Shown: positions 13,428-36,554 of the stretch, one piece after another
How positions within the stretch are numbered: position 1 is the stretch's first letter
Layout: every line of letters begins with the position of its first letter
Source: a virus
Virus record (IMG/VR): IMGVR_UViG_3300031993_000003
DNA length: 64,000 bases
Reading direction: 5' to 3' (one strand)
The notes under the pieces: generated by a model
Told to the model about the DNA's origin: nothing
The model's input: only the letters and a program-made list of their open reading frames with translations
The model's database searches: none
Translations under genes and position numbers: made by a program

Positions 13428-13799
13428 GTTGTAGAACAGAGGAACACATATGCGGATAGAAGAAATACAGATAATGGAAAATGATAATAACGGTGTAATC
13501 AATCTTGTTCGAGACCGGTTATTCTGGCGGGCTTGGGAGAGGTCAGCCTATCTATTCAATATGCACATCATTCCATACAAGGTCCAGCATAAGTCATATA
13601 AGCAGATTAATAAGGAAATGCTATTTATTGGATTTCCCGATACTTCATTGGATAAGGTTAAACGGATATCAACTGGACAACATTTCGATATACATATTGT
13701 ATCGGAATCACATATTATTAAATGAAAATTGTTATAAACTATTGATAACTGTATAAAAATAATGTATATTTAATATAGTTATTGGTAGGAAACTCAATT

Positions 13800-14426: not shown

Positions 14427-14474
14427 TTATAGACAACTATATAAACTTATAGATGAAATGGAATAAATATCTAT

Positions 14475-18406: not shown

Positions 18407-18556
18407 GTTGTTTGTAATTTCCATATTCGTCTCGATGCTCGCCCTCTTCGCCCTCCAGTCATGCGGCGACGAGGTCACCGGCCAGCCCGACGAGGAATGC
18501 ATCACAATAGACGACAGCACCAGGCTGTGCGGGGATAAAGAATGGACCGTATACTG
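18398..18556 (+). CDS. Small lipoprotein (MNKLFVISIFVSMLALFALQSCGDE…).
   Basis: Signal peptide plus LQSC lipobox; its 3' end is part of the tandemly duplicated segment. Confidence 0.4.
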
Positions 18557-18769
18557 AAATCGTATTCGCGCGAGGAAATCGCCGAGATGGAACCGGGAAA
18601 GGACCGGTTCTACCTCGCCGAGGACGTCGAGAAGGTAATCGGGGAACTGAACAGGAAGCTCCGGGAGAAACCTCCCGCTGCTACCGGGAGTGACCGGTGG
18701 ATTACCAACGGGCAGGTTCCGGACGACATCCATGAGAACAAAAGGGGCAAGTTGGGAATCTTCGGCTGA
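18542..18769 (+). CDS. Small hypothetical protein, paralog A (MDRILKSYSREEIAEMEPGKDRFYLAEDVE…).
   Basis: 75 aa; the first 30 aa are identical to the ORF at 18826. Confidence 0.5.
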   Translation: MDRILKSYSREEIAEMEPGKDRFYLAEDVEKVIGELNRKLREKPPAATGSDRWITNGQVPDDIHENKRGKLGIFG

Positions 18770-18825
18770 CACCGGGAGGAATGTATAACCATCGACGACA
18801 GCACCAGGCTGTGCGGGGATAAAGA

Positions 18826-19083
18826 ATGGACCGTATACTGAAATCGTATTCGCGCGAGGAAATCGCCGAGATGGAACCGGGAAAGGACCGGTTCTACCTC
18901 GCCGAGGACGTCGAGAGGGAAATCGGCAGGCTCCGGAGGGAACTCCGGGAGGTTAAGGAAGCTCCCGGGGAGAACCGGGAGAAGGTTGTCATATACAAGG
19001 ATGACCGCTGGATATGTAACGGGAATGTCCCGGACCCGGACCCTGCAGAAATCGAGCGTCAAAAGTGGGGACTTTTCGGTTGA
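18826..19083 (+). CDS. Small hypothetical protein, paralog B.
   Basis: 85 aa; its N-terminus is identical to 18542-18769 and its C-terminus has diverged. Confidence 0.5.
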   Translation: MDRILKSYSREEIAEMEPGKDRFYLAEDVEREIGRLRRELREVKEAPGENREKVVIYKDDRWICNGNVPDPDPAEIERQKWGLFG

Positions 19084-19116: not shown

Positions 19117-19174
19117 TGCGGCGGTAATTCAGTAGGTAGAATATCTGCCTTCCAAGCAGACTGTCGCCGGTTCG
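19117..19174 (+). pseudogene. tRNA-Gly(UCC) 5' portion (acceptor 5' strand through T-loop TTCGA), interrupted by an insertion element.
   Basis: GCGGCGG-TA-ATTC/GAAT D-arm; anticodon stem TCTGC/GCAGA with loop CTTCCAA; T-stem GCCGG; the sequence then leaves the tRNA fold after TTCGA. Confidence 0.55.
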
Positions 19175-21452: not shown

Positions 21453-21528
21453 GGGCCTGTGGCAGAATGGAATTGCCCCTCCCCTGCAAGGAGTGTGTTT
21501 TTGTGGGTTCGAATCCCACCAGTGTCCA
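21453..21528 (+). tRNA. tRNA-Ala(UGC)-like, with G3:U wobble, an 8-nt 3' acceptor strand (bulged U), C33 and an unusually long T-rich variable loop.
   Basis: GGGCCTG-TG-GCAG…TTGC; anticodon stem CCTCC/GGAGT with loop CCTGCAA; T-arm GTGGG-TTCGAAT-CCCAC; 3' CAGTGTCC-A. Confidence 0.45.
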
Positions 21529-21587
21529 CTAACGGTAGCTCCCGGAGAGCTGCCGGCAGATTGACAGTCCGGAATGAATTTCTTTTT

Positions 21588-21660
21588 GGGCCATTAGCTC
21601 AATGGTAGAGCGCCTGTCCGGCAGACAGGAGGTTATCGGTTCGAGCCCGATATGTGTCCA
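21588..21660 (+). tRNA. tRNA-Ala(GGC), with G3:U, a bulged U in the 3' acceptor strand and C33.
   Basis: GGGCCAT-TA-GCTC-AATGGTA-GAGC-G-CCTGT-CCGGCAG-ACAGG-AGGTT-ATCGG-TTCGAGC-CCGAT-ATGTGTCC-A. Confidence 0.55.
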
Positions 21661-21670
21661 GTATATCTTT

Positions 21671-21742
21671 GGGTCATTAGTTCAATGGTAGAACTCCCGG
21701 TCCGCATCCGGGGGATACCGGTTCGACTCCGGTATGTATCCA
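21671..21742 (+). tRNA. tRNA-Ala(CGC), with G3:U, a bulged U in the 3' acceptor strand and C33.
   Basis: GGGTCAT-TA-GTTC-AATGGTA-GAAC-T-CCCGG-TCCGCAT-CCGGG-GGAT-ACCGG-TTCGACT-CCGGT-ATGTATCC-A. Confidence 0.55.
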
Positions 21743-21746
21743 CTAA

Positions 21747-21823
21747 GGTCACTTAGCTCAGCAGGATTTCAGAGCGCCGTGCTACGAACGCGGAGGCCGG
21801 GAGTTCGAACCTCTCAGTGACTA
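21747..21823 (+). tRNA. tRNA-Arg(ACG).
   Basis: GGTCACT…; anticodon stem CCGTG/CGCGG with loop CTACGAA; T-arm GGGAG-TTCGAAC-CTCTC; 3' AGTGACT-A. Confidence 0.65.
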
Positions 21824-21838
21824 CTAACAAACTAATTC

Positions 21839-21911
21839 GGTCCCTTCGGCCAGTGGTTGAAGCCATCGCACTTTCTATGCGAAGACCCCGGTTCGAATCC
21901 GGGAGGGACTA
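21839..21911 (+). tRNA. tRNA-Glu(UUC).
   Basis: GGTCCCT…; stem TCGCA/TGCGA with loop CTTTCTA; T-arm CCCGG-TTCGAAT-CCGGG; 3' AGGGACT-A. Confidence 0.6.
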
Positions 21912-21915
21912 CTAC

Positions 21916-21989
21916 GTTCGTCTAGCTCAATTGGTTAGAGCTTCTGTCTGATATGCAGAGGGTTGCACGTTCAAGTCGTGCGGCGAACA
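21916..21989 (+). tRNA. tRNA-Ile(GAU).
   Basis: GTTCGTC-TA-GCTC…GAGC; stem TCTGT/GCAGA with loop CTGATAT; T-arm GCACG-TTCAAGT-CGTGC; 3' GGCGAAC-A. Confidence 0.65.
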
Positions 21990-21994
21990 CTAAT

Positions 21995-22067
21995 GCCGCT
22001 GTAGCTCAGTTGGTAGAGCGGAAGCCTGAAGAGCTTCGCGTCGGACGTTCGAGCCGTCCCGGCGGCA
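21995..22067 (+). tRNA. tRNA-Phe(GAA).
   Basis: GCCGCTG-TA-GCTC-AGTTGGTA-GAGC; stem GAAGC/GCTTC with loop CTGAAGA; T-arm GGACG-TTCGAGC-CGTCC; 3' CGGCGGC-A. Confidence 0.7.
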
Positions 22068-22074
22068 CTAAATT

Positions 22075-22146
22075 GGGGCCATAGTATAGTGGTCAGTACT
22101 CCGGCTTGTCACGCCGGCAACGCGGGTCCGATTCCCGCTGGTCCCG
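22075..22146 (+). tRNA. tRNA-Asp(GUC) (discriminator G).
   Basis: GGGGCCA-TA-GTAT…GTAC; stem CCGGC/GCCGG with loop TTGTCAC; T-arm GCGGG-TCCGATT-CCCGC; 3' TGGTCCC-G. Confidence 0.65.
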
Positions 22147-22156
22147 CTAGATTTTT

Positions 22157-22240
22157 GGGTGTGCGCCGACGATGGCGAGTCGGGACGGTCTGTAAAACCG
22201 TTGCCTTCGGGCTTAGCTGGTTCGAATCCAGCTACACCCA
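22157..22240 (+). tRNA. tRNA-Tyr(GUA), type II (long variable arm).
   Basis: GGGTGTG…; D-stem CCGA/TCGG; anticodon stem ACGGT/ACCGT with loop CTGTAAA; variable arm GCC-TTCG-GGC; T-arm GCTGG-TTCGAAT-CCAGC; 3' TACACCC-A. Confidence 0.6.
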
Positions 22241-22244
22241 CTAT

Positions 22245-22317
22245 TCCACCCTAGTTCAACTGGTAGAACGCCCGGCCGTTAACCGGGAGGTTCCAGGGTC
22301 GTAGCCTGGGGGTGGAG
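22245..22317 (+). tRNA. tRNA-Asn(GUU), with C33 and an atypical T-loop GTCGTAG.
   Basis: TCCACCC-TA-GTTC…GAAC; stem CCCGG/CCGGG with loop CCGTTAA; 3' GGGTGGA-G. Confidence 0.5.
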
Positions 22318-22323
22318 CTAAAT

Positions 22324-22409
22324 GGGTGTTCTCTGGTGATGGTGAATCGGGGCTGGCTGTAACCCAGCTGCCTTAAACGGCTTAGGGCGTTCGAATCGCT
22401 CAACACCCA
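22324..22409 (+). tRNA. Second type-II tRNA with anticodon GUA (Tyr), sequence-divergent from the one at 22157.
   Basis: GGGTGTT…; anticodon stem GCTGG/CCAGC with loop CTGTAAC; variable arm GCC-TTAAAC-GGC; T-arm GGGCG-TTCGAAT-CGCTC; 3' AACACCC-A (perfect acceptor pairing). Confidence 0.55.
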
Positions 22410-22549
22410 CTAAAGGATATAATTTCTGTAGTGCAATATAAATTACCAGAGGACAGGTAACTGGCATTACTTGACTTGTCGTTCTAGTCTAACTCTGGTA
22501 ATTATCAATCTATATAAACTGCATATAGAACATTGCCAGATGTTTTATC

Positions 22550-23245
22550 ATGAATTACACTAAGATTTACGCAAGTATTGTCTTGCGAGCTCAGACTGAA
22601 CGAACTGAGCGGTTAGCCTTGAAGAAACAGGGCCAGTATTTCGAGAACCATCATATAATACCTCGTTGCTTAGGCGGTATCGACAATGCATCTAATATGG
22701 CGTTATTAACTGGGCGCGAACATTTTATATGTCATTGGTTGCTAGTTAAAATTTATAGGCCGAATACTGTTGAATATTCTAAAATGATTCTAGCGCTGTG
22801 GCGAATGCGCTCTGCCGGTCAAGACCATCATGGTCGATATATCAACGCTCGTACATACGAATATCTTCGTGAAGACTATGCCCATGCTATTGGTAAAATT
22901 ACGTCTGTGACTCAGCACGGTTCAAAAAATTCTCACTATGGCGCTAAATGGTACACGAATTCGTATGATGGGACTGTTATAATATCTAAAACTGCATTAG
23001 AGTTTCCTTGGGTGCTTGGTCGAAATTTATTTAAAGGGGAATCGGTTTGTCTACAAACTTCTAGACAGCATATGCGGTTGTATGCACAAAGGTTATGGAA
23101 TCAATTCCATTCCGGTGATTATACTTCATTAAGAGACTTTAAGCGAAGAGAACATATTTCTGGTGCTTTGGTGAGCCGATTATTTTTACATCATATTCCG
23201 TTATACAGTACATTAAATGCTAATGGTCGTAAAAAAGTATTGTAA
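22550..23245 (+). CDS. HNH homing endonuclease.
   Basis: HHIIPRCLGGIDNASNMALLTGREHFICH motif; located in an AT-rich island between tRNA genes. Confidence 0.7.
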   Translation: MNYTKIYASIVLRAQTERTERLALKKQGQYFENHHIIPRCLGGIDNASNMALLTGREHFICHWLLVKIYRPNTVEYSKMILALWRMRSAGQDHHGRYINARTYEYLREDYAHAIGKITSVTQHGSKNSHYGAKWYTNSYDGTVIISKTALEFPWVLGRNLFKGESVCLQTSRQHMRLYAQRLWNQFHSGDYTSLRDFKRREHISGALVSRLFLHHIPLYSTLNANGRKKVL

Positions 23246-23757
23246 ATTTTTAAAAATATTCGAGAAAAAGGTTGCAAAAATAAGAAAAAATATATAAACT
23301 GTATGAGATGAGTGAACGAACAAGTTATGCCCTTGCACGCAGAACCATCAAAGCATAACCGACCATATAACTAACATTCAGAGCCTTCGGCTACGACCTT
23401 AATTGGGGAAGTTGAAGGACAAGGTATGGAAGGGCCGAGATGCGGAGCCGCAAGTCTTCAGAAGCATGACCGCTGTAACTGCCGTCAAGACATAGAGATG
23501 CAAATGCAGTCCCCAAAACTCACGTGGAGGGGATAGAGGCCGTTGTAGTTCGGCCATCACGTACTTCGTTGCGTGACTAATCGCTTTCATGATTTTTCAT
23601 TGAAAGCGGAAACTATTACCAAATAAAGCACTAATTGATAAATTTGAGTAATATAACTTTCCTAGGGGCTATAATCTGGTGACAACACCTCCCCAGAAGG
23701 GGAGGGCTTATAAGTAGAACATTTTTCTTATGCATGTTTGACACGAAGCAAGATTTT

Positions 23758-23770
23758 TTGCTATATTTGT
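23758..23770 (+). promoter_or_regulatory. TTTGCTATATTTG promoter 13-mer upstream of the second tRNA cluster.
   Basis: Exact motif. Confidence 0.55.
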
Positions 23771-23833
23771 CTTCGAAAAGGGAAATCCCCCGAGATTTCC
23801 GAGCAGATTTACATTTCGGATGCAATTATTCAA

Positions 23834-23907
23834 CGTGACCTACGCCAAATGGAGAGCGGCAGGTAGAGAGTGCCTGTGGTATGCCGGTTCAACTCCGGCT
23901 GTCACGT
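23834..23907 (+). tRNA. tRNA-like gene with a good acceptor stem (6 bp) and T-arm (GCCGG-TTCAACT-CCGGC) but a non-canonical anticodon arm (9-nt loop TAGAGAGTG, or a 7-nt loop lacking U33); identity unassigned.
   Basis: CGTGACC-TA…; 3' TGTCACG; standard 74-nt length; the anticodon region does not fold canonically. Confidence 0.3.
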
Positions 23908-24017
23908 TTATTAAACCCTTGATACCGGTGTCGGCCGGCGGCTTATTTCCATGGCCGCGCCTCCTAAACGGTTGTTGTGTTCTCTAGGCTGGCACCGGTA
24001 TAGGGGTGGAGTTTTAT

Positions 24018-24091
24018 CGCGGGTTGGAGCAGTTGGTAGCTCGCCAGGCCCATAACCTGGAGGCCGCGGCGTTCGAGTCCCGCACCCGCTA
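24018..24091 (+). tRNA. tRNA-Met(CAU), with a C1·U72 mismatch (initiator-like?), C33 and an imperfect T-stem.
   Basis: CGCGGGT-TG-GAGC-AGTTGGTA-GCTC-G-CCAGG-CCCATAA-CCTGG…TTCGAGT…ACCCGC. Confidence 0.45.
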
Positions 24092-24293
24092 GAAATTCCC
24101 TAAACATCTCCCGGTGACAAGCCGGGGGCACCCGGCGCCCGGACCGGGGACAACCGGGCAAACCTTTGACGTAGCCAGCGCATATCTATGGATATGCCTG
24201 GTTGCGGACGTGCTTGCGTGGTATGTACCGGCCTTGTGCTGGCGGCAACACCGTGGTATCTCCCTAGTGTGTCCGGGAGGTACCTAAAATTTA

Positions 24294-24368
24294 GCCCCGG
24301 TAGCTCAATTGGATGAGAGTACTACCCTCCGAAGGTAGTGGTTACCGGTTCAAGCCCGGTCTGGGGTA
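24294..24368 (+). tRNA. tRNA-Arg(CCG).
   Basis: GCCCCGG-TA-GCTC…; stem CTACC/GGTAG with loop CTCCGAA; T-arm ACCGG-TTCAAGC-CCGGT; 3' CTGGGGT-A. Confidence 0.6.
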
Positions 24369-24501
24369 CGAGAAATTTCCCTGGTGTAGCCACCGGGGTT
24401 TCCGGAGTAAGGACCGCGATATCTCCGGTAGAAAGCGCAAAGTTATTCGGGGGCGCTCTAAAGGCCGTGACTGGGTTAACACGGCTGACCCGTGCGGTTT
24501 C

Positions 24502-24576
24502 CGGAGTGTAGCTCAGCCTGGTAGAGCATCGGTTTTGGGAACCGAGGGTTCGCGTGTTCGAATCACGCTACTCCGA
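24502..24576 (+). tRNA. tRNA-Pro(UGG).
   Basis: CGGAGTG-TA-GCTC-AGCCTGGTA-GAGC-A-TCGGT-TTTGGGA-ACCGA…GCGTG-TTCGAAT-CACGC-TACTCCG-A. Confidence 0.65.
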
Positions 24577-24890
24577 CTAAATCCCCGACACACAAGGGGT
24601 CATTCCCCGTCGTGTGCGCCCCTACCTGGCATGCCGACATTCCGGTAGGTTCAAATTGCGAGGATAAGGGTGGACCTCGCCGGGGAGACCATTGAAATAC
24701 CCATGCACCGGGAAATCTACGGCCGTGGAATCCTCCCTTGGAGGGAGGACGGTGAAGCGGCAAGGGGCCCGTTCCTACAGTTAACATCATTGATGTCTAC
24801 GATAGGTTGCCACCGGTAGTCCCGGTAGGTGGTGGCGTAAAACGGTCGAAGGAGGCAGTTCAAGGCGTCCCCGGGCACCGAGTTTAAGTT

Positions 24891-25257
24891 GGACCGATAA
24901 CTCAATGGTTAGAGTTGCGGACTCATATATGTGCATATATGCATAAAAGCTATATGCGACTTGTGACCTCCCGGGGAAACCCTGGAGTGAAAACGGGAAG
25001 AATTCGGCGAAACCTAACCTGCCCTAGCCATAGGACCGAAAGGTTACTAGACCGGCAGTATGGTGACGCCGAGCCGAGCCCCGGGTACACCCGGGGAAGG
25101 TGTAGAGACTAGTGGAGGAGTCCAGTCTCCTTAATGACCACAACAGCATCCCGCATCTAAACCGGAAACGGCACGATGAAGACATAGTCCCGGGTAGTAT
25201 GAAAATATTACTTTATAAGGAACCCGTCGGTTGCAGGTTCGAATCCTGCTCGGTCCA
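24891..25257 (+). tRNA. tRNA-Met/Ile2(CAU) interrupted by a ~294-nt intron in the anticodon loop (exon 1 24891-24926, exon 2 25221-25257).
   Basis: 5' GGACCGA and 3' TCGGTCC are perfectly complementary 367 nt apart; D-arm ACTC/GAGT; the loop would be CTCAT|AA after splicing; T-arm GCAGG-TTCGAAT-CCTGC. Confidence 0.55.
24927..25220 (+). other. Putative group I intron (no ORF) in the tRNA anticodon loop.
   Basis: Inserted after U36 (exon 1 ends with U); the intron ends in G; GC-rich paired elements (CCCGGGG…CCCCGGG). The size and position are typical of bacterial or phage tRNA group I introns. Confidence 0.4.
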
Positions 25258-25277
25258 CTATTTAGTTTGAAAGTTTT

Positions 25278-25354
25278 GTCCTCGTCGCCTAATTGGAATG
25301 GCACCTCTCTCCTAAAGAGGTTTTTAAATGCAGGTTCGAGTCCTGCCGGGGATA
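25278..25354 (+). tRNA. tRNA-Arg(CCU), with a 9-nt T/A-rich variable loop.
   Basis: GTCCTCG…; stem CCTCT/AGAGG with loop CTCCTAA; T-arm GCAGG-TTCGAGT-CCTGC; 3' CGGGGAT-A. Confidence 0.55.
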
Positions 25355-26227
25355 CTATCCGGTGGGTGAAATTTTACTACGAAGCAAGGTAAGTAATTCT
25401 TCAATTTTGTTGGGGCGATAGCAATCCTTAAAATGTAGCTCAATAACTTCCCAGCCTTGCGATACTAAATAATCATGTCGTTCTTGATAATATGGCTTCA
25501 GTTGACCACCATAGTAATGTTGATTTCCGTTGACTTCAATGTCTAACTTTATATCAATAAAGGCTATGTCTAATGAATATGCATGTGACCACGATGCATC
25601 AGTATATTCACTTTCAAACTTGAATTTGTTGTCGGCCAATATCGTTTTCAGTGTTTCACATGGTGGAGATACAAACTTATCCGTGGATTTCCAGTTACAC
25701 TTCTCTGGATGTTCTTTAGCAAACTGGCGTTTAACTTCGGCTAGATGCGCCCTTTCCTCATTAGTCCATTTATGAGGGCCATGCGGTTTCTTTGTACATA
25801 ACTTATAATGGTCACGTTTCTTTCCGGTGTATTTCTCATTACAATATGGACATACACTATCTCGGTTCTTGGACTTGATAGTGTCTGGATGTTCCGCATG
25901 CCTATGTGCATATAGTTTGTTTTTTGACATGAAGATGCTATCGCAGAATGGACATTTCCACCCTTCTGGTCTGGCGAGTCGTTCACTGTGGAAATTGCAG
26001 TAATTATGTTTTATCTGCACTCTATTCGGATTAGAATGGCATGACTGTTCATGAAGCTTTAGTGTTCCTGGACGTTTGCATATCTTTCCACAATATTGAC
26101 AGTGGTATTCACCGGAGTCTGGCATTGTGTTGATTCGGTTTTGATTACATGGGCAGTGTTTTTCATGCACCATGCATGCTGATTTTACTGGTATTTCTTT
26201 TGAACAATATTTGCATTTCATACACAA
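25355..26227 (-). CDS. Homing-endonuclease-like protein: three C2H2-type zinc fingers plus a C-terminal DUF559/Vsr-like (PD-(D/E)xK) endonuclease domain.
   Basis: C..C…H..H repeats (CQYCGKICKRPGTLKLHEQSCH; CPFCDS…HRHAEH; CPYCNEKY…); C-terminus …LDIAFIDIKLDIEVNGNQHY…QERHDYLVSQGWEVIELHF; AT-rich island abutting the tRNA-Arg 3' end. Confidence 0.55.
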   Translation of the reverse strand: MCMKCKYCSKEIPVKSACMVHEKHCPCNQNRINTMPDSGEYHCQYCGKICKRPGTLKLHEQSCHSNPNRVQIKHNYCNFHSERLARPEGWKCPFCDSIFMSKNKLYAHRHAEHPDTIKSKNRDSVCPYCNEKYTGKKRDHYKLCTKKPHGPHKWTNEERAHLAEVKRQFAKEHPEKCNWKSTDKFVSPPCETLKTILADNKFKFESEYTDASWSHAYSLDIAFIDIKLDIEVNGNQHYYGGQLKPYYQERHDYLVSQGWEVIELHFKDCYRPNKIEELLTLLRSKISPTG

Positions 26228-26432
26228 TAGTTTATATCCGCTTTAGCTAACGGATGATGCTAACTCTGTGTTCTGTACCACTTTATTTATGCTATTAAAA
26301 GCTAGCCTCTCCGCAATAGACTCCCGGAAGTACAACGGGATGTTCGATAAGGTGGTCCTTTGCGATACATGTGGAGCAACTTACGGAATCACGGCAGGGA
26401 GTCTGAGACTCACCGTATCCGTAAGCCATCGG

Positions 26433-26457
26433 GCCGGTCCGATTCCGGCGGGAGGCA
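26433..26457 (+). other. Orphan tRNA-like 3' end (T-arm GCCGG-TCCGATT-CCGGC + acceptor 3' strand GGGAGGC-A); a complementary 5' strand GCCTCTC lies 150 nt upstream (26305), but no canonical tRNA body was found.
   Basis: A strong T-arm consensus; the intervening 26312-26432 does not fold as a D-arm or anticodon arm. Confidence 0.25.
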
Positions 26458-26601
26458 CTAAGACCGCGAACCTGCGCCGAAGCTCTTTGAGGCTGGTTTT
26501 CTCGTGGGAGGCGATATCGCCCTAGGACAGGTACAGGACTGCATGTAATGGCCGGGGTAGCTCCACGGAAAGATGCAAGCCGTAGGGGGAACAATGCTAT
26601 C

Positions 26602-26688
26602 TGGAGGGCTACGCTAATTGGTAAGCGACCACGGTGCTAACGTGGCGTCCCGGAAACGGGGCTTACAGGTTCGAACCCTGTGCCCTCC
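26602..26688 (+). tRNA. tRNA-Ser(GCU), type II.
   Basis: GGAGGGC-TA-CGCT…AGCG; stem CCACG/CGTGG with loop GTGCTAA; variable arm CCCG-GAAA-CGGG; T-arm ACAGG-TTCGAAC-CCTGT; 3' GCCCTCC (perfect). Confidence 0.65.
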
Positions 26689-26719
26689 TCTATATAAACC
26701 ACATATTCGGAGAAACATT

Positions 26720-27013
26720 ATGGACTTGTCGTCGTTCGCAATATGGAAGTTTAGGTACGTCGAGGGATACCTCGAGGGAATGCAGTCATATGACGTGGAG
26801 ACGACCAAGTACGTGAACCCGAAGACGTTCATGACTACCTGGATAAGGTACGACATGAAGAACGAGACGGCCAGCATCGAGGAGTTCGATAGGCCTCCCG
26901 TAGTCTGCAAGTTTGCCGAACTGGAGGCCACCCTGAAGAAGCTGGGTATGTACCGGGAGCGCCCGGTGACTGCCAGGCACATGCTGGCGGGGCCCCAGGA
27001 GAAGGAAGATTAA
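26720..27013 (+). CDS. Small hypothetical protein.
   Basis: The ORF track's start at 26618 lies inside tRNA-Ser; the first plausible ATG is at 26720 (MDLSSFAIWKF…). Confidence 0.45.
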   Translation: MDLSSFAIWKFRYVEGYLEGMQSYDVETTKYVNPKTFMTTWIRYDMKNETASIEEFDRPPVVCKFAELEATLKKLGMYRERPVTARHMLAGPQEKED

Positions 27014-27031
27014 AGCATAAGCACTGACCCG

Positions 27032-27157
27032 ATAGGTGTCTGCGCGGGTTGCGAACTGCGCAGGTGCCGACAAGGAGGTTCCTTCGGGCCCGGCGTTAAG
27101 CCGGTGCAAAAGTGCTTCCGGTGTCGCAACGCCGGAGGTCCCGGTTCGATTCCGGCG
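27032..27157 (+). other. 126-nt GC-rich tRNA-like element with a canonical 3' T-arm (CCGG-TTCGATT-CCGG) and 6-7-bp pairing between its 5' end (GCGCGGG) and 3' end (CCGCGC-A); the internal hairpins are too long for a standard tRNA.
   Basis: U8-like TT after the 5' acceptor strand; multiple CCGG-stem hairpins inside; it could be an unusual or intron-bearing tRNA, or a tRNA-like ncRNA. Confidence 0.25.
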
Positions 27158-27680
27158 GTGCCGCGCATTTTTTATTTGAGTTTGCCGCGAGGGTGGACGT
27201 CATCCCGGAGCGCGGCAGGGTGCTTCCCGATTAAGCACAGCCGAGTAGGCCTACTGGCGAAAGGAAATCGGAAAAACGCTACCCCGGGTTGGGCGAAAGA
27301 CATAAGTCCGACGCAAGGTAGTTAGTTTGGCAATGCGATGCTATGTGGGAAAACTGCCCGTCATTGCCCCCTGATAGGCTTGCTACGCCGGCAAGCGAGC
27401 GCTAAATCAACGCACGGGGCGAAGTTTCTAACAGGTTGACCCACGTCCATTTCGAGGCGTTCCAACATTCGGGTTTCCGGATGGGAGAAACCACCCGTCA
27501 ATTCGGGCAAACTTCTAAAGCTGGCGTTTCTAGAGCGCATCGTAGCTCCCCGCGTTGGTAGCGGCGACACCGGGTTAAAATCCGTGAGCCGGCGTGCAGA
27601 CTGTGCGCCCCATGAACGAGCGGCATAATCGTAGGTGTATGACAGGTTTCCGGTCCTGGGGAGATTTAAAACCGGTTTAT

Positions 27681-27753
27681 GGCCACGTCGAATAACGGTT
27701 CAGTTCGCCGCCCTCTCAAGGCGGAAATTCGGGTTCGAGTCCCGGCGCGGCTA
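27681..27753 (+). tRNA. tRNA-Glu(CUC).
   Basis: GGCCACG-TC-GAAT…GTTC; stem CCGCC/GGCGG with loop CTCTCAA; T-arm TCGGG-TTCGAGT-CCCGG; 3' CGCGGCT-A (one A·C mismatch). Confidence 0.5.
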
Positions 27754-27757
27754 CTAA

Positions 27758-28261
27758 ATGTCAAAGCTGATTCTCATGATAGGAATCCCCGGTTGCGGCA
27801 AGTCGACCTGGGCGACCCGGTATGCACAGGAGCATCCCGGGTGTTTCGTCGTGTCCAGCGACGGAATCAGGCGGGAACTGTACGGTACGGAGGAATTCGA
27901 CCCTGACCCGGCGGTGAACATGAGAGTGTTCGCCATGGTTCGCGCCAGGGTTTCTTCCGGTATCATCAAGGGAGATGTCATAGTGGACGCGACGAACGTC
28001 CATGTGCGCGACTGGAGGCAGTACATAGAACTGTGCCCGGGAGGTACGGACTGCAGAGCCGTGCTGCTCGACGTGGGACCGGACGAGGCGATGCGCCGCC
28101 AGGAGGGACGCGAGAGAAAGGTGCCGAGGGAGGTGCTGGAGAGGATGTGGGAGACCATCGGGAGCAACCGGGGGAGAATCCCGGAGTTCTTCGGGAGATG
28201 GCTCGTAATCGGCGAAGATGGAATAGTTTCGGAGATGACACGAGAAGAGGGACGACAATGA
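27758..28261 (+). CDS. pnk: Polynucleotide 5'-kinase (T4 Pnk kinase-domain-like, P-loop).
   Basis: MSKLILMIGIPGCGKSTWA…HPGCFVVSSDGIRRE versus T4 Pnk MKKIILTIGCPGSGKSTWA…NPGFYNINRDDYRQ; 167 aa, kinase domain only. Confidence 0.7.
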   Translation: MSKLILMIGIPGCGKSTWATRYAQEHPGCFVVSSDGIRRELYGTEEFDPDPAVNMRVFAMVRARVSSGIIKGDVIVDATNVHVRDWRQYIELCPGGTDCRAVLLDVGPDEAMRRQEGRERKVPREVLERMWETIGSNRGRIPEFFGRWLVIGEDGIVSEMTREEGRQ

Positions 28262-28425
28262 AAGTTAGAGAATGGTTAGCCAGCTTGACTAAAGAACAGC
28301 TTGACAGCTATGCGCTGCTCGGGTTCGGGTTCTGGCCGCGGCTTCTCATGAAGATGACTGAAGAGGATAGCTTCAGGATAGGCTGTAAGAGCCGATACGA
28401 CTTTGCGAAGAATATGACGAGATGA
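28259..28425 (+). CDS. Small hypothetical protein.
   Basis: ATGA overlap with pnk. Confidence 0.35.
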
Positions 28426-28444
28426 AAAGAGAAGAGGTACAACA

Positions 28445-28639
28445 ATGAGCGCATGGAAGAAAACTGCCGAGGAGCTTCCCGAGAATGACGAGCCGGTGGC
28501 AATCCGCCCAAGTTTCCATGGGCGACAGTTCGCCGTATGGAACCGGAAGTGCGACTGTTGGGACGACGAGACTGGCGACGACTACATGTGCGACCGTGAC
28601 GCGGTCGAGGAATGGTACCCTATTCCATGGAACGAATAA
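28445..28639 (+). CDS. Small hypothetical protein.
   Basis: 64-aa ORF. Confidence 0.4.
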   Translation: MSAWKKTAEELPENDEPVAIRPSFHGRQFAVWNRKCDCWDDETGDDYMCDRDAVEEWYPIPWNE

Positions 28640-28649
28640 CAGGAGCGAA

Positions 28650-28833
28650 CATGAAGAAGCACGAGGATATCCCGGAAGAGACCGAGGAACAGAAGAGGGA
28701 GCGCTGGGAGAAGTCCCAGAAGAAGGCGAGGTCGTTCGCGAGGCAGTGCGGCGTGGACCTGAAGAAGATTACCAGGGAGCGCCGGAAGATTGCCATGGAG
28801 CATGCCAGGGGTTCCGAGAAGTACGACTACTGA
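28650..28833 (+). CDS. Small basic hypothetical protein.
   Basis: ORF starting MKKHEDIPEE…. Confidence 0.4.
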
Positions 28834-28842
28834 TTTTAAGGA

Positions 28843-28932
28843 GGTGTGGCCGAGAGGTTGATGGCTGCCGATTTGAAATCGGCCGAGGGCTGATGAGGTC
28901 CTCCGTGGGTTCGAATCCTACCACCTCTTCTA
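28843..28932 (+). tRNA. tRNA-Ser(UGA), type II.
   Basis: GGAGGTG-TG-GCC…GGC; stem GCCGA/TCGGC with loop TTTGAAA; variable arm GAGG…CCTC; T-arm GTGGG-TTCGAAT-CCTAC; 3' CACCTCT. Confidence 0.6.
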
Positions 28933-35273: not shown

Positions 35274-36554
35274 ATGAGAATCGAAGAAGCGAAAGATATC
35301 GAGAGTGTTGAAAGAGGTCTCCGGCTTGTGCGGGAGATTGAGTCGTGCGGATATACCGCATGCATCGCGGGCGGCTGCGTACGCGACCTTGTAAGGTGGA
35401 AGATTAGCCTTTCGCACGACCCGGACATACATGACGTGGATATAGCGACCAACATGCCCATGGAAAGGCTGAAGGAGCACTTCAGGTGCGCCAGCAACAA
35501 CGGGGAGGCCCACGGTACCATCCTGGTGCTGTTCGAGGATGTTCCGTACGAGGTGACCCAGTACAGGGCCGACGGGAAGTACACCGACGGGCGGCATCCC
35601 GATTCGGTGAAGTGGGCCGATACGTTCGAGGAAGATACCCGGAGAAGGGACTTCACCATGAACTCGATGGGACTCGATTCCGATTACAATGTGCTGGACT
35701 ACCACGGCGGGGAAGATTCCATACGTTTTGGCGAGATTGCAACCGTAGGCGACCCCATAGAGAGGTTCAACGAGGATGCCCTGAGGATTGTGCGTGCCTA
35801 CCGGTTCGCCTCCCGGTTCGGAATGTCGATTTCCCCGGTGACTTCCGCGGCCTGCATGGCGCTTGCCGGGAGGGTCTCCCACCTTACCCCGGAGAGACTG
35901 CATGACGAGTTCTACAAGACTGCGTCGTACGGGGTGAAGGCGTTCGCCGAGTTCATCAGCTACCTCGCCGAGGGCGTCGGTCCGTACATATGCGGCGGCA
36001 TAGACTGGAAGGAACTGTCCACCCAGATGCACCGCATAAGGTCCTCCCAGTTGCTCCAGTGGGACCCCGACTATGCCCTCGCGCTGGTCTTCGACACCGA
36101 GGAGCAGATGAGGGCCTTCCGGTGCAGCCTGGACGAGATAAGGGCGATGAAGTTCATCCACTCGTACTACCCACGGTACCTTGCCGGGGAGCTCGACCTG
36201 GTGGACTTCGTGGACGGCACCAACGACCCACGGTGGGACGCGCTGAGGGCCTATGCGATATCCAGGCAGGGGTTCTTCGTGCTGCGCCCCGACGAGGAGG
36301 CGAGGTTCCGCTCGTTCAGGTACAGGTATCCTACGGCCGGGGACATAAGCAAGGAACTTGAGGAGTCCGGGGTAGCATCCGGGAAGCAGTTTGGGGAGTA
36401 CCTCAAGGAGGTCCGGAAGATGGCCTACCGGGAGATGCTGGCTAGGAAGGATATTGGTAAAGATGACCTGCATAAACTGGTTGCCGAAGCAAGGAGACAA
36501 GTCGACAGCCGATGCACGCAGTCCTCAGTATCATCTTCTGGCTCCTCGGAATAG
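35274..36554 (+). CDS. cca: tRNA nucleotidyltransferase (CCA-adding enzyme), class II.
   Basis: Head-domain motifs GGCVRD…DVD, RRDFTMN and DPIERFNEDALRIVRAYRF. Confidence 0.75.
   Translation: MRIEEAKDIESVERGLRLVREIESCGYTACIAGGCVRDLVRWKISLSHDPDIHDVDIATNMPMERLKEHFRCASNNGEAHGTILVLFEDVPYEVTQYRADGKYTDGRHPDSVKWADTFEEDTRRRDFTMNSMGLDSDYNVLDYHGGEDSIRFGEIATVGDPIERFNEDALRIVRAYRFASRFGMSISPVTSAACMALAGRVSHLTPERLHDEFYKTASYGVKAFAEFISYLAEGVGPYICGGIDWKELSTQMHRIRSSQLLQWDPDYALALVFDTEEQMRAFRCSLDEIRAMKFIHSYYPRYLAGELDLVDFVDGTNDPRWDALRAYAISRQGFFVLRPDEEARFRSFRYRYPTAGDISKELEESGVASGKQFGEYLKEVRKMAYREMLARKDIGKDDLHKLVAEARRQVDSRCTQSSVSSSGSSE

What the first reader, a model, noticed from the sequence alone, without database searches (positions are those of the whole stretch)
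24891..25257. tRNA-Met/Ile(CAU) interrupted by a ~294-nt ORF-less group-I-like intron in the anticodon loop
Perfectly complementary acceptor strands (GGACCGA / TCGGTCC) lie 367 nt apart. Exon 1 ends …CUCAU|, the intron ends in G, and exon 2 resumes with AACCCGU…, regenerating a CUCAUAA loop. The position and the GC-rich paired segments fit a bacterial tRNA group I intron. Both this intron and the two homing-endonuclease genes occur in the same array.
Basis: partly seen in the sequence, partly recalled or inferred. Interest (0 to 1): 0.6.

Follow-up and report, generated by a model that had tools for sequence, protein, structure and literature searches.

The report
Self-splicing intron inside a phage tRNA
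A tRNA gene (anticodon CAU) in the tRNA cluster of a large uncultured phage is split by a 294-base group I ribozyme intron of the well-known Azoarcus tRNA-Ile type; the intron type is ordinary, but I found no paper describing one in a phage tRNA gene.

Summary
ARAGORN in intron mode calls a tRNA(CAU) at 24891-25258 with a 294-nt intron at 24927-25220. Removing the intron leaves a 73-nt cloverleaf with the loop CUCAUAA.

The intron matches Rfam Intron_gpI over the whole model at 44.6 bits, below the curated cut-off of 50. E is 4e-8 for the whole window.

It is homologous to the classical tRNA-Ile2(CAU) introns inserted between positions 36 and 37, such as the Azoarcus intron. About 59% of roughly 200 alignable positions are identical. 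It is closer to copies in phage-like metagenome contigs (97%, 80% and 68-73% identity).

A hand-built P1-P9 structure with the P3/P7 pseudoknot is 89% paired across 23 homologues, against 36-41% for slid controls. Fifty-five pairs change on both sides.

U24926·G24963, the terminal G25220 and the P7 guanosine-site pair are all present. Extra elements are a hairpin in the P1 loop, an extended P5 and a P7.1-like hairpin. There is no ORF in the intron.

The context is a distantly T4-like phage with homing endonucleases and its own CCA-adding enzyme.

Verdict: a real intron and a new member of a known kind. Splicing activity is inferred, not shown. I found unannotated split tRNA-Leu genes in two deposited phage genomes and no paper describing the phenomenon.

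The parts
24891..24926 (+). tRNA(CAU) exon 1: acceptor 5' strand, D arm, anticodon stem 5' strand, and loop nucleotides C32 U33 and the anticodon C34 A35 U36
   Evidence: ARAGORN with introns allowed. In alignment A1 the acceptor, D and T stems are 100% paired across 23 homologues.
24927..25220 (+). Group I intron, 294 nt, no ORF
   Evidence: Rfam RF00028 hit at 24942-25211, 44.6 bits, E = 4e-8 for the window. Homology to Azoarcus-type tRNA-Ile introns. Covariation. MFE z = -4.9.
24923..24966 (+). P1: exon UCAU (24923-24926) pairs with the internal guide GUGA (24963-24966). U24926·G24963 is the wobble pair at the 5' splice site. The P1 loop is unusually long at 36 nt.
   Evidence: The three pairs next to the splice site, including the U·G, are invariant in 23/23 homologues. 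GUGA is kept in L143, L113, L066, L162 and L134. The nearer GUG at 24931 is GCG in L143 and GCA in L113.
24933..24957 (+). P1a: a 9-bp hairpin inserted in the P1 loop (GCAUAUA-U-GC / GCUAUAUGC). It is specific to this lineage (window, L143, L113).
   Evidence: Recovered by the MFE fold. L113 shows one G-C to A-U double change, while L143 carries two disruptions. Support is weak.
24967..24989 (+). P2 hairpin with a GAAA tetraloop (24976-24979)
   Evidence: Relatives have hairpins of quite different sequence, mostly with GAAA loops. Three double changes against L113 keep or create pairing.
24994..25000 (+). P3 5' strand; pairs with 25147-25153
   Evidence: Four of 6 pairs change on both sides across homologues.
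25004..25101 (+). P4-P6 domain. P4 is 25004-09/25067-72. J4/5 is AAA. P5 carries an 11-nt-receptor-like CCUAA...UAUGG motif (25013-17/25059-63). P5a is 25019-23/25054-58. P5b is a lineage-specific extension (25031-37/25042-49, GAAA loop). P6 is 25073-74/25100-01. P6a is 25079-85/25090-96, with a UACA loop.
   Evidence: P4 is 98.6% paired and P6a 94% paired with 5 covarying pairs. All 5 P5a pairs covary.
25105..25111 (+). P7 5' strand (G-[A25106 bulge]-GACUA); pairs with 25185-25190. G25107-C25189 is the predicted guanosine-binding pair.
   Evidence: All 6 pairs are invariant in 23/23 homologues, including the Azoarcus-type loci. Assigning the G site to this pair is by analogy with Azoarcus G130-C177, which I recalled from memory.
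25112..25141 (+). P7.1-like hairpin between P7 and P3' (GUGG-AGGAG...CUCCU-UAAUGA-CCAC). Absent from Azoarcus-type introns.
   Evidence: 100% and 97.6% paired in the 17 homologues that have it, with 4 pairs changing on both sides. Shared with Opitutales genomes L021 and L034 and with a crAss-like phage intron.
25147..25153 (+). P3 3' strand. With P7 it forms the core pseudoknot.
25154..25178 (+). P8 and P8a, with an internal loop UAAA/CAC (a receptor-like position) and a GAAA loop
   Evidence: four changed pairs against L113, all still paired.
25179..25190 (+). J8/7 (AAGACA) and the P7 3' strand (UAGUCC)
   Evidence: 11 of the 12 positions (all but A25182) are identical in all 23 homologues, as are the two preceding bases G25175 and G25178 in the P8 3' strand.
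25194..25211 (+). P9 hairpin with a GAAA tetraloop (25201-25204), the predicted partner of the P5 receptor
   Evidence: All 7 pairs change on both sides across homologues, and the GAAA is invariant.
25220..25220 (+). Terminal guanosine (omega-G) at the 3' splice site
   Evidence: G in 21/23 homologues; the exception is the L063 group.
25221..25257 (+). tRNA(CAU) exon 2: A37 A38, anticodon stem 3' strand, variable loop, T arm, acceptor 3' strand and discriminator A. No CCA is encoded.
35274..36554 (+). Phage-encoded tRNA nucleotidyltransferase (CCA-adding enzyme). It is presumably needed because the array tRNAs, this one included, lack an encoded CCA.
   Evidence: phrog_2244, E = 6e-40. tblastn hits to phage tRNA nucleotidyltransferases. 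The functional link is inferred.
22550..23245 (+). Free-standing HNH homing endonuclease in the same tRNA array. A homologue lies directly upstream of the intron-bearing tRNA in related locus L066.
   Evidence: phrog_655, E = 2e-37. tblastn gives 44% identity to L066:404-1186. A role in intron mobility was not tested.
25355..26227 (-). Multi-zinc-finger protein with a C-terminal DUF559/Vsr-like nuclease-like domain, 98 nt downstream of the split tRNA. A candidate free-standing endonuclease.
   Evidence: Weak matches only: DUF559 E = 0.003, phrog_27406 E = 7e-6, phrog_12324 'intron-like DNA endonuclease' E = 3e-4. No homologue was found next to the intron in any other fetched locus.

Best explanation
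This is a phage-encoded elongator-type tRNA(CAU) gene, most likely tRNA-Ile2 that reads AUA after lysidine modification. It is interrupted between anticodon-loop positions 36 and 37 by a 294-nt self-splicing group I intron with no ORF. The intron belongs to the classical 'Ile2, after CAU' class, the same class and core as the Azoarcus pre-tRNA-Ile intron.

Inferred mechanism. The array is transcribed and the intron folds into the P3-P9 core, braced by GAAA tetraloop contacts (L9 to the P5 receptor, L2 to P8). The last four exon bases, UCAU, pair with the guide GUGA (24963-66) to form P1, with U24926·G24963 at the cleavage site. A free guanosine bound at the P7 pair G25107-C25189 attacks after U24926. 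G25220 then occupies the same pocket, and the exon-1 3'-OH attacks after G25220. The anticodon stem (24917-21/25223-27) and a 2-bp P10 (AA/UU) help hold the exons together. The result is the CUCAUAA loop. RNase P, 3' trimming and the phage's own CCA-adding enzyme finish the tRNA.

Shown: gene structure, homology, core structure and covariation. Inferred: catalysis, tRNA identity and CCA addition.
For: The split-tRNA call has exact boundaries. Rfam Intron_gpI matches the full model, E = 4e-8.

A pattern scan of 185,579 species genomes returned 48 loci. In 45 of them ARAGORN in intron mode called a tRNA split in the anticodon loop. These include Azoarcus-type tRNA(CAU) genes with exon/intron/exon lengths of 39/204-205/40 nt, the same architecture as published for Azoarcus (PMC13168695). 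The insertion site is identical to ours.

A hand-built structure mapped on 23 homologues has 89.4% of cells paired, against 35.5-40.7% when partners are slid. Fifty-five pairs change on both sides. The covariation score is 0.345 against 0.05-0.09 for slid controls, and 0 of 500 shuffles reach the observed value.

The window differs from L113 at 63 positions. These affect 23 pairs, and 21 of the 23 still pair. This argues for ongoing selection on the fold within the phage lineage.

The U·G pair, P7 and almost all of J8/7 are invariant, and omega-G is present in 21/23. The MFE fold independently recovers P1a, P2, P4-P6, P7.1 and P9, and the centroid also recovers P8 (z = -4.9).

Phage context. 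On the same 195-kb contig there is a family-B DNA polymerase with 26-27% identity to gp43 of T4-like cyanophages; the matches come from 2,371 phage records. There is also a CCA-adding enzyme and homing endonucleases. Relative L162 is an IMG/VR contig with a DNA polymerase, a clamp loader and a UvsX-like recombinase.

Ile2 reading. The other tRNA(CAU), at 24017-24092, looks like an initiator. AUA makes up 33% of Ile codons in 12 window ORFs, and the 19 tRNAs called in this window include no other AUA decoder. The gene has C4:G69, C5:G68 and G27·U43, as in E. coli tRNA-Ile2; those identity elements are recalled from memory.
Against: No experiment: self-splicing is inferred. The Rfam score is below the curated gathering threshold (44.6 against 50). 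P10 is only 2 bp. P9.0 is reduced to a single C-G pair here, because position 25218 is A where L143 has a pairing C. The mature anticodon stem carries an A31:C39 mismatch. That mismatch is conserved in all 8 closest relatives (three near-identical copies, three further phage-like contigs and two bacterial-looking loci) and also in an intron-free tRNA fragment in L063, so it looks like a lineage trait rather than damage. The Ile2-versus-Met identity cannot be settled from sequence. No phage structural gene lies in the window itself, so the phage assignment rests on replication and tRNA-processing genes and on relatives.
Confidence: 0.85

Rival explanations
1. Decayed relic. The intron was inherited with a captured bacterial tRNA gene but no longer splices, so the locus is a tRNA pseudogene in the array.
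For: The Rfam score is below gathering. P9.0 and P10 are weak in this copy. There is an A31:C39 mismatch. The P1 loop is unusually long at 36 nt, with a hairpin that carries two disruptions in L143.
Against: All core nucleotides that are invariant across 23 homologues are intact here. Of the 23 pairs that differ from the 80%-identical L113 copy, 21 keep pairing, and the exons differ at only 5 of 73 positions. That is the signature of purifying selection on both ribozyme and tRNA. The A:C mismatch is shared by all 8 closest relatives and by an intron-free fragment.
Confidence: 0.07
2. Not phage-borne. The window is part of a bacterial chromosome, plasmid or other element, which would make this just one more of the thousands of bacterial tRNA group I introns.
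For: No capsid, tail or terminase gene was identified among the window ORFs scanned. The window holds TnpB and IS607-like transposases. The closest non-metagenomic homologues of the intron are bacterial (Opitutales, Betaproteobacteria).
Against: The array has at least 19 tRNAs interspersed with homing endonucleases. It is accompanied by a phage-type CCA-adding enzyme, an NAD ligase and, on the same contig, a DNA polymerase distantly related to gp43 of T4-like phages, ThyX and a T4 Y07B-family protein. Most ORFs are orphans. The 195-kb and 116-kb contigs come from two assemblies. Relatives of the intron sit in IMG/VR contigs with a phage replication module.
Confidence: 0.1
3. Collaborative homing, an add-on to the main explanation. 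The intron has no ORF, but a free-standing endonuclease of the array (HNH 22550-23245, or the zinc-finger/DUF559 protein 25355-26227) spreads it. The enzyme would cut intron-free tRNA(CAU) alleles of co-infecting relatives, and the intron would protect its own allele.
For: Endonuclease genes flank the split tRNA. A homologue of the HNH protein (44% identity) lies directly upstream of the intron-bearing tRNA in L066. Precedents recalled from memory: the ORF-less psbA intron with the adjacent F-CphI endonuclease in cyanophage S-PM2, and SegB in the T4 tRNA cluster.
Against: No endonuclease family is consistently adjacent to the intron. The 290-aa protein has no homologue in any fetched relative, and L113 (80% identical intron) has neither next to it. 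No intron-free allele of this phage tRNA was found: two viral-contig scans for the exon and the junction returned nothing. Cleavage specificity is unknown.
Confidence: 0.15
4. Chance juxtaposition, or an ARAGORN artefact: two unrelated half-tRNA-like sequences around a GC-rich spacer.
For: In intron mode ARAGORN also produces two dubious calls in this window: 21453-21660, which merges two tRNA-Ala genes, and 26949-27164.
Against: There is independent Rfam evidence, homology across the full length of both exons and the intron to 40+ loci, covariation, and identical boundaries in relatives.
Confidence: 0.01

Closest known systems
[quoted passage not shown]
   Same: Same host gene type, tRNA(CAU). 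Same insertion site, after U36. The CAU/GUG core of P1 has U·G at the splice site. J3/4-P4-J4/5 (AAUUCGGCGAAACCUAA) and J6/7-P7 (GAAGGUGUAGAGACUAG) are identical, and P4'-P6 is nearly identical. The P7 3' strand is identical and J8/7 differs at one base (GAAGACAUAGUCC against GAAGGCAUAGUCC). Both have GAAA loops on P2 and P9, a CCUAA...UAUGG receptor in P5, and no ORF. Identity is about 58-61% over about 200 aligned intron positions to Azoarcus-type loci.
   Different: The intron is 294 nt against 205 nt. It has three extra elements: a 36-nt P1 loop with a hairpin (P1a), a P5b extension capped by GAAA, and a P7.1-like hairpin between P7 and P3'. P1 is 4 bp (UCAU/GUGA). The P6a loop is UACA. 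Exon position 39 is C, giving A31:C39, where Azoarcus has U (A-U). The host is a phage, not a betaproteobacterium. The Azoarcus intron is proven to self-splice (PMC13168695); this one is not.
tRNA(CAU) introns of Opitutales/Verrucomicrobiota genomes (L021 Horticoccus sp., L034 Opitutales MAG) and related metagenome loci
   Same: Same site and core. They also share the P7.1-like hairpin with the conserved CUUAAUNACC strand, GCCGAGCCGAGC in P4'-P6, and GAAGACAUAGUCC in J8/7 to the P7 3' strand.
   Different: They are 233-235 nt, lack P1a and P5b, and have the A31-U39 pair. They are chromosomal and have an encoded CCA. Intron identity is about 57-63%.
Unannotated split tRNA genes in deposited phage genomes: tRNA-Leu(UAA) in Agrobacterium jumbo phage Atu_ph07 (MF403008, 112890-113251, minus strand) and in the 735-kb uncultured phage LR756501
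   Same: Both are phage-encoded tRNA genes interrupted in the anticodon loop by an ORF-less group I intron with the same core. In Atu_ph07 the Rfam score is likewise just under the gathering threshold (48.9 bits); the LR756501 tRNA-Leu locus was not scanned with Rfam. Neither is annotated in its record.
   Different: A different tRNA (Leu UAA) and a different site (34/35, the classical cyanobacterial/proteobacterial Leu class). Introns of 278 and 205 nt. No P7.1-like hairpin.
Group I introns of phage protein-coding genes (T4 td/nrdB/nrdD, cyanophage psbA, crAss-like phages)
   Same: Self-splicing group I introns in large phages that also carry free-standing homing endonucleases. A crAss-like phage intron (MT774392, about 8.2-8.5 kb) even has the same P7.1-like hairpin and the same P6 loop.
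   Different: Those interrupt ORFs and often encode their own endonuclease. This one interrupts a tRNA. According to the 2014 review PMC3984707, that had not been seen in phages.

Membership tests
Group I intron (Rfam RF00028) | Covariance-model match at or above the curated gathering score | tested here: inconclusive
   44.6 bits against a gathering score of 50. The match is full length (model 1-253), with E = 5.7e-10 locally and 4e-8 for the window. Williams 2020 used cut-offs of 18-20 bits together with a split-tRNA call.
Group I intron (Rfam RF00028) | Conserved core: P3-P4-P5-P6-P7-P8-P9 with the P3/P7 pseudoknot | tested here: met
   All helices can be drawn. 89.4% paired across 23 homologues against 36-41% for slid controls, with 55 covarying pairs.
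Group I intron (Rfam RF00028) | U at -1 forming a U·G wobble with the internal guide sequence in P1 | tested here: met
   U24926·G24963; U·G in 23/23 homologues.
Group I intron (Rfam RF00028) | Terminal guanosine (omega-G) at the 3' splice site | tested here: met
   G25220; G in 21/23 homologues.
Group I intron (Rfam RF00028) | Guanosine-binding site in P7 (a G-C pair next to a bulged nucleotide) | tested here: met
   G25105-[A25106]-G25107ACUA pairs with UAGUCC (25185-90), identical in all 23 homologues including the Azoarcus-type loci. This was tested at the sequence level only.
Group I intron (Rfam RF00028) | Guanosine-dependent self-splicing | not testable with these tools
   Needs an in-vitro splicing assay or RNA-seq.
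Bacterial tRNA intron class Ile2.5Ug (Azoarcus type, IC3) | Insertion between nucleotides 36 and 37 of an elongator tRNA with anticodon CAU | tested here: met
   ARAGORN reports i(37,294) with the anticodon at 34-36. The position is the same in 44 distinct homologous pre-tRNAs.
Bacterial tRNA intron class Ile2.5Ug (Azoarcus type, IC3) | Compact IC3 architecture: P2 and P9 GAAA tetraloops with receptors in P8 and P5, and no P7.1/P7.2 | tested here: not met
   The tetraloops and the P5 receptor are present. However, a P7.1-like hairpin (25112-41), P5b and P1a are added. The core is IC3-like; the periphery is not canonical. A formal subgroup assignment was not run.
Bacterial tRNA intron class Ile2.5Ug (Azoarcus type, IC3) | The host tRNA is tRNA-Ile2, with C34 converted to lysidine by TilS | not testable with these tools
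   Only suggestive evidence: the gene is not initiator-like; it has C4:G69, C5:G68 and G27·U43; AUA is 33% of Ile codons; and the tRNAs called in this window include no other AUA decoder.
Mobile (homing) group I intron | Intron-encoded homing endonuclease ORF | tested here: not met
   The intron is 294 nt. Only overlapping frames of 65 aa or less with TTG or GTG starts exist. All bacterial tRNA introns that carry endonuclease genes exceed 500 bp (PMC13011429).
Protein-spliced (bulge-helix-bulge) tRNA intron | Short intron at 37/38 within a BHB motif, cut by a splicing endonuclease | tested here: not met
   The intron lies at 36/37, is 294 nt long and has a group I core.

The most novel reading that the evidence does not exclude
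Group I introns in phage-encoded tRNA genes, and probably tmRNA genes, may be a real, recurrent and so far undescribed phenomenon. This window, its relatives L143, L113, L066, L134 and L162, Agrobacterium phage Atu_ph07 and the 735-kb phage LR756501 all carry them. They are missed because tRNA finders are run without intron mode and, in the two cases measured, Rfam scores fall just under the gathering threshold. If so, the review statement that phage introns occur only in protein-coding genes is wrong. The intron might also do something for the phage. It could make maturation of a rare-codon tRNA (AUA) depend on GTP/Mg2+ status, or it could shield the tRNA gene from the array's own homing endonucleases.
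Probability: 0.4. Interest if true: 0.55.

Novelty: new member of a known kind. Interest (0 to 1): 0.4.

Why it matters
Three points matter.

(1) Annotation. Default ARAGORN and Rfam runs at gathering threshold miss this tRNA completely. The phage's tRNA repertoire, probably its only AUA decoder, is therefore under-counted. The same is true of at least two deposited phage genomes.

(2) Biology of mobile introns. A 2014 review (PMC3984707) states that all phage introns sit in protein-coding genes despite the many phage tRNA genes. This locus and its relatives are counter-examples. They suggest that tRNA genes were captured from bacteria together with their introns, and that the ribozyme has been kept under selection inside phage genomes.

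(3) Ribozyme resource. This is a natural Azoarcus-like core carrying three added peripheral modules (P1a, P5b, P7.1-like). It comes with a graded series of relatives at 97%, 80% and about 70% identity, which is useful for structure-function comparison.

None of this changes what is known about how group I introns work.

Tried and rejected
- Nearer GUG (24931-33) as the guide sequence, with a 4-nt P1 loop: rejected. It reads GCG in L143 and GCA in L113, whereas GUGA at 24963-66 is kept in all close relatives and aligns with the Azoarcus guide.
- Exact 17-mer AATTCGGCGAAACCTAA in viral contigs: 4 hits, none with an Rfam or tRNA call at the thresholds used, so probably chance matches.
- Search for an intron-free allele, using the spliced junction and exon 1 as patterns in viral contigs: no hits. 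The only uninterrupted GGACUCAUAACCCG found is a 3' tRNA fragment in the bacterial-looking loci L063, L069, L109 and L130.
- First metagenome pattern, built on the P7.1 hairpin: no hits. A second, looser pattern found 103 loci.
- INPHARED phage search with the whole pre-tRNA: no match. Only the core, at a relaxed E-value, led to other phage introns.
- Contigs carrying the window's ligase (L056, L057): identical in the intron, so they give no variation.
- Conserved 200-nt spacer upstream (24693-24886): tested as a possible structured RNA. z = -0.65 and no Rfam match, so dropped.
- Possible second intron or ribozyme in 26650-27700, where ARAGORN calls a 'tRNA-Leu with a 124-nt intron': only a 16-bit tRNA-like hit. 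Treated as an artefact or a minor tRNA-like element.
- A covariance model of the whole intron was not built, because about 300 positions exceeds the calibration limit. Alignment plus pair counting was used instead.
- Literature: seven full-text searches found no paper reporting a group I intron in a phage tRNA gene. The library is incomplete, so absence is not proven.
Full report
**Observation**

The sequence at 24891-25257 reads GGACCGAUAACUCAAUGGUUAGAGUUGCGGACUCAU, then 294 nt, then AACCCGUCGGUUGCAGGUUCGAAUCCUGCUCGGUCCA. ARAGORN in default mode finds 19 tRNAs in the window (21453-28930) but nothing here. With introns allowed it calls tRNA(cat) at 24891-25258 with a 294-nt intron starting at tRNA position 37, which is 24927-25220. 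The in-silico spliced 73-mer is a standard cloverleaf. It has a 7-bp acceptor stem, a 4-bp D stem, a 5-bp T stem and the loop CUCAUAA. Its one defect is an A31:C39 mismatch.

**Is it a group I intron?**

The default Rfam scan at gathering thresholds reports only tRNAs. With E-value thresholds, Intron_gpI (RF00028) matches 24942-25211 over the entire model (1-253) at 44.6 bits. E is 5.7e-10 for a 901-nt search and 4e-8 for the whole window, and it is the only such hit in 64 kb. The score is under the curated gathering score of 50, which explains why routine annotation would miss it. The intron alone folds to -104.7 kcal/mol, z = -4.9 against 200 shuffles. That fold recovers most of the helices assigned below on its own.

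**Relatives**

A pattern built from three conserved core segments hit 48 loci in the collection of 185,579 species genomes. In 45 of them ARAGORN in intron mode calls a tRNA gene split in the anticodon loop; the other three sit at locus ends. They fall into these groups:
- tRNA(CAU) genes in Rhodocyclales, Burkholderiales and relatives, with 39-nt exon, 204-205-nt intron and 40-nt exon. This is the published architecture of the Azoarcus pre-tRNA-Ile (PMC13168695).
- tRNA-Leu(UAA) genes in Burkholderia and Paraburkholderia.
- tRNA(CAU) genes with 233-nt introns in two Opitutales genomes.
- One tRNA-Asn(GUU) gene.

The insertion site of the CAU class, after U36, is the same as here. Williams (doi 10.1101/2020.01.27.920355) lists this 'Ile2.5Ug' class as one of the four classical bacterial tRNA group I intron classes, all assigned to subgroup IC3.

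A second pattern required the longer P7-to-P7' spacing seen here. It found 103 metagenome loci and 7 IMG/VR loci. The closest are:
- L143: 97.8% identical over the whole 367 nt.
- L113: 82.8% identical, with the same neighbour, tRNA-Arg(CCU).
- L066, L134 and L162 (which is identical to L089, L098 and L167): 68-73% intron identity.

Two ENA contigs of 195 kb and 116 kb carry the window's ligase and an identical copy of the split tRNA.

**Structure**

I aligned 23 distinct pre-tRNA(CAU) sequences (alignment A1). They comprise the window, 5 phage-like loci, 2 bacterial-looking 'L063-type' loci, 9 Verrucomicrobia-like loci and 6 Azoarcus-type loci. I then mapped a hand-built structure onto the alignment.

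- P1 is UCAU (24923-26) with GUGA (24963-66). The pair at the splice site is U24926·G24963.
- The P1 loop is 36 nt and holds a 9-bp hairpin, P1a (24933-57).
- P2 is 24967-89, with a GAAA loop.
- P3 is 24994-25000 with 25147-53.
- P4 is 25004-09 with 25067-72.
- P5 is 25013-14 with 25062-63, inside a CCUAA...UAUGG receptor motif.
- P5a is 25019-23 with 25054-58.
- P5b is 25031-37 with 25042-49, with a GAAA loop.
- P6 and P6a lie within 25073-25101.
- P7 is 25105-11 with 25185-90, with A25106 bulged. G25107-C25189 sits in the position of the guanosine-binding pair.
- A P7.1-like hairpin occupies 25112-41.
- P8 and P8a are 25154-78.
- P9 is 25194-25211, with a GAAA loop.
- Omega-G is G25220.

Counting pairs on A1 gave 89.4% of cells paired, against 35.5-40.7% when the 3' partners are slid by 1-3 columns. 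Fifty-five of the 108 pairs change on both sides. The covariation score is 0.345 against 0.05-0.09 for the slid controls, and no shuffle in 500 reached any observed measure.

Not every helix can covary. P7, the three P1 pairs next to the splice site, and most of P4 are invariant, so they neither support nor contradict the structure. P2, P3, P5a, P6a, P7.1b, P8, P8a, P9 and the tRNA stems carry the covariation. P2 scores only 57% paired because MAFFT shifts its register between groups, but the individual sequences each form a hairpin.

Within the phage lineage, the window and L113 differ at 63 positions. These affect 23 pairs, and 21 of the 23 still pair; 11 of those 21 changed on both sides. 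The exons differ at only 5 of 73 positions.

The guide sequence needed a decision. A GUG lies only 4 nt into the intron (24931-33), but it reads GCG in L143 and GCA in L113. GUGA at 24963-66 is kept in L143, L113, L066, L162 and L134, and it aligns with the Azoarcus-type GUG. I therefore take GUGA as the guide.

**Differences from the Azoarcus type**

Identity to Azoarcus-type introns is 58-61% over about 200 alignable positions. The core strands are identical or nearly so: AAUUCGGCGAAACCUAA, CGCCGAGCC, GAAGGUGUAGAGACUAG and AUAGUCC. Three modules account for the extra 89 nt.

- P1a and P5b occur only in the window, L143 and L113.
- The P7.1-like hairpin has a conserved CUUAAUNACC strand. It is shared with the Verrucomicrobia-like, L063-type and phage-like members. 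It also appears in a high-scoring group I intron of a crAss-like phage that is not in a tRNA.

The core is thus IC3-like and the periphery is not canonical. I did not run a formal subgroup classifier.

Weak points of this particular copy:
- P10 is 2 bp (A25221 and A25222 with U24962 and U24961).
- P9.0 is a single pair, because position 25218 is A where L143 has a pairing C.
- The A31:C39 mismatch remains. It is present in all 8 closest relatives and also in an intron-free 3' tRNA fragment in L063, so I read it as a trait of this tRNA lineage rather than damage.

**Which tRNA?**

The other tRNA(CAU) in the array (24017-24092) looks like an initiator. The split gene is of elongator type.

In 12 ORFs of the window, AUA is 33% of Ile codons (15.6 per 1000) and AGG is 21 per 1000. 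The neighbouring gene is tRNA-Arg(CCU), and the tRNAs called in this window include no other AUA decoder. Together with membership in the 'Ile2' intron class, this favours tRNA-Ile2. Sequence alone cannot settle the question.

The gene encodes no CCA. A tRNA nucleotidyltransferase is encoded at 35274-36554.

**Context**

The window has at least 19 tRNA genes in 21.4-29 kb. Its other identifiable genes are:
- an HNH homing endonuclease (22550-23245; phrog_655, E = 2e-37);
- a multi-zinc-finger protein with a DUF559-like C-terminus (25355-26227, minus strand; weak matches);
- an AAA_33 kinase-like protein;
- an NAD-dependent DNA ligase;
- TnpB and IS607-like elements;
- many orphan ORFs.

Upstream on the 195-kb contig lie a family-B DNA polymerase, ThyX and a T4 Y07B-family protein. 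The polymerase has 26-27% identity to gp43 of T4-like cyanophages, and it matches 2,371 phage records. L162, an IMG/VR contig, has a DNA polymerase, a clamp loader, methyltransferases and a UvsX-like recombinase around its split tRNA. I conclude, with about 0.85-0.9 confidence, that the host genome is a large, distantly T4-like phage. No structural gene was seen in the window itself.

**Mobility**

The intron has no ORF. The HNH protein has a 44%-identical homologue directly upstream of the split tRNA in L066. However, no endonuclease is consistently adjacent to the intron in relatives, and no intron-free allele of the phage tRNA was found. Mobilisation in trans ('collaborative homing') therefore remains a hypothesis.

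The simplest history is that a bacterial tRNA(CAU) gene was captured together with its intron. Intron and exon similarities to bacterial copies decline together.

**Known or new?**

The intron kind, its site and its mechanism are textbook. [quoted passage not shown] Seven full-text searches found no later report of a group I intron in a phage tRNA. The huge-phage paper PMC7162821 does not contain the word 'intron'.

The sequences do exist in public phage records without annotation:
- Agrobacterium jumbo phage Atu_ph07 has a tRNA-Leu(UAA) gene with a 278-nt intron (Rfam 48.9 bits).
- The 735-kb phage LR756501 has a tRNA-Leu(UAA) gene with a 205-nt intron.
- LR756501 also has a 96-bit group I intron directly after a weak tmRNA match.

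So this locus is a new member of a known kind, in a host context that appears to have been overlooked rather than absent.

**Verdict**

- Confidence that this is a group I intron in a tRNA(CAU) gene: about 0.95.
- Confidence that it still self-splices: about 0.8.
- Confidence that the genome is a phage: about 0.85-0.9.
- Interest: moderate (0.4).

Noticed in passing
L171 (MF403008.1 112890-113251, minus strand); L172 (LR756501.1, about 190.3 kb): Two deposited phage genomes carry unannotated tRNA-Leu(UAA) genes split at position 34/35 by ORF-less group I introns of 278 nt and 205 nt. They are the cultured Agrobacterium jumbo phage Atu_ph07 and the 735-kb uncultured phage LR756501. The Atu_ph07 intron scores 48.9 bits, just under the Rfam gathering score.
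   Followed up: partly
L170 (LR756501.1, about 718.2 kb), locus 1035-1607: A strong group I intron (96 bits) begins exactly where a weak tmRNA match (21 bits) ends. It is followed by AATCCCTGCGGGTCCA, which looks like the 3' part of a T arm plus an acceptor strand. This is probably a phage-encoded tmRNA with an intron in its T loop. ARAGORN's tmRNA mode finds nothing there.
   Followed up: partly
L169 (MT774392.1, crAss-like phage cr128_1, about 8.2-8.5 kb): A group I intron (86 bits) lies in an unannotated stretch and is not in a tRNA. It has the same P7.1-like hairpin (CUGGAGGAGUACAGUCUCCUUAAUUACCAG) and the same GGUACACC P6 loop as the window's intron. These modules are therefore shared across introns in different host genes.
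   Followed up: no
L063, L069, L103, L109, L116, L130, L139, L159, L168: This is a tRNA(CAU) gene with a 237-nt intron, flanked by a promoter-like TAnnTTTG motif and terminators. If the exon junction is homologous, the base before the 3' exon is A, not G (…ACGUA|AACCCG). ARAGORN's alternative solution gives anticodon CUA ('tRNA-Pyl'). Either this is a non-G terminal nucleotide or a possible amber suppressor.
   Followed up: no
L063 about 3330-3400 (also L069, L109, L130): An intron-free 3' fragment of a tRNA(CAU) gene (AGAGCAGCGGACUCAUAACCCGCGGGUUCCCGGUUCAAGUCCGGGAGGCCCCA) lies about 2.4 kb from the intron-containing gene. It looks like an att-site duplicate left by an element integrated into the tRNA gene.
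   Followed up: no
L059/L088, L119/L125, L147, L112, L163/L165/L135/L149: Azoarcus-like group I cores (AAUUCGGCG…GCCGAGCC…GUAGAGACUAG…GAAGACAUAGUCC) occur where ARAGORN found no tRNA exons around them. Some sit at the ends of ORFs. L163 and L165 are IMG/VR contigs of 77 kb and 109 kb.
   Followed up: no
L134 (ODAJ012192752.1, 139-kb contig): A phage-like array of 8 tRNAs includes both the split tRNA(CAU) and an intact tRNA with anticodon CUA, a possible amber suppressor.
   Followed up: no
window 18492-18642 and 18776-18926; 19118-19168; 19190-20926(-): A 151-nt direct repeat (96% identical) and a 51-nt Rfam tRNA-like match (35 bits) lie just beside the 3' end of a TnpB (Cas12f1-like TNB) gene. 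These may be element ends or a guide-RNA region.
   Followed up: no
window 13782-15770: A serine recombinase (resolvase) lies next to a TnpB-like ORF (431 aa) in a low-GC patch (44-49% against about 57% elsewhere). This looks like an IS607-type insertion. A further transposase-like ORF is at 41675-42985(-).
   Followed up: no
window 27087-27162: A weak tRNA-like element with a T arm, an acceptor-like end and a long extra arm (16 bits to tRNA-Sec) is followed by a T-run. ARAGORN in intron mode turns it into a doubtful 'tRNA-Leu(CAA) with a 124-nt intron' at 26949-27164.
   Followed up: partly
window 24693-24886: A spacer of about 200 nt directly upstream of the split tRNA is conserved (over 90%) between the window and L143, although the sequence further upstream differs. 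There is no significant fold (z = -0.65) and no Rfam match.
   Followed up: yes
window 27758-28261 and 35274-36554: An AAA_33 kinase-like protein sits inside the tRNA array, and a CCA-adding enzyme lies 7 kb downstream. This suggests a phage tRNA maturation or repair toolkit.
   Followed up: partly
L029 (JBIKXM010000003.1): An Azoarcus-type split tRNA(CAU) gene is preceded, about 220 nt upstream, by a second copy of the 5' exon. ARAGORN consequently reports a 427-nt 'intron'.
   Followed up: no
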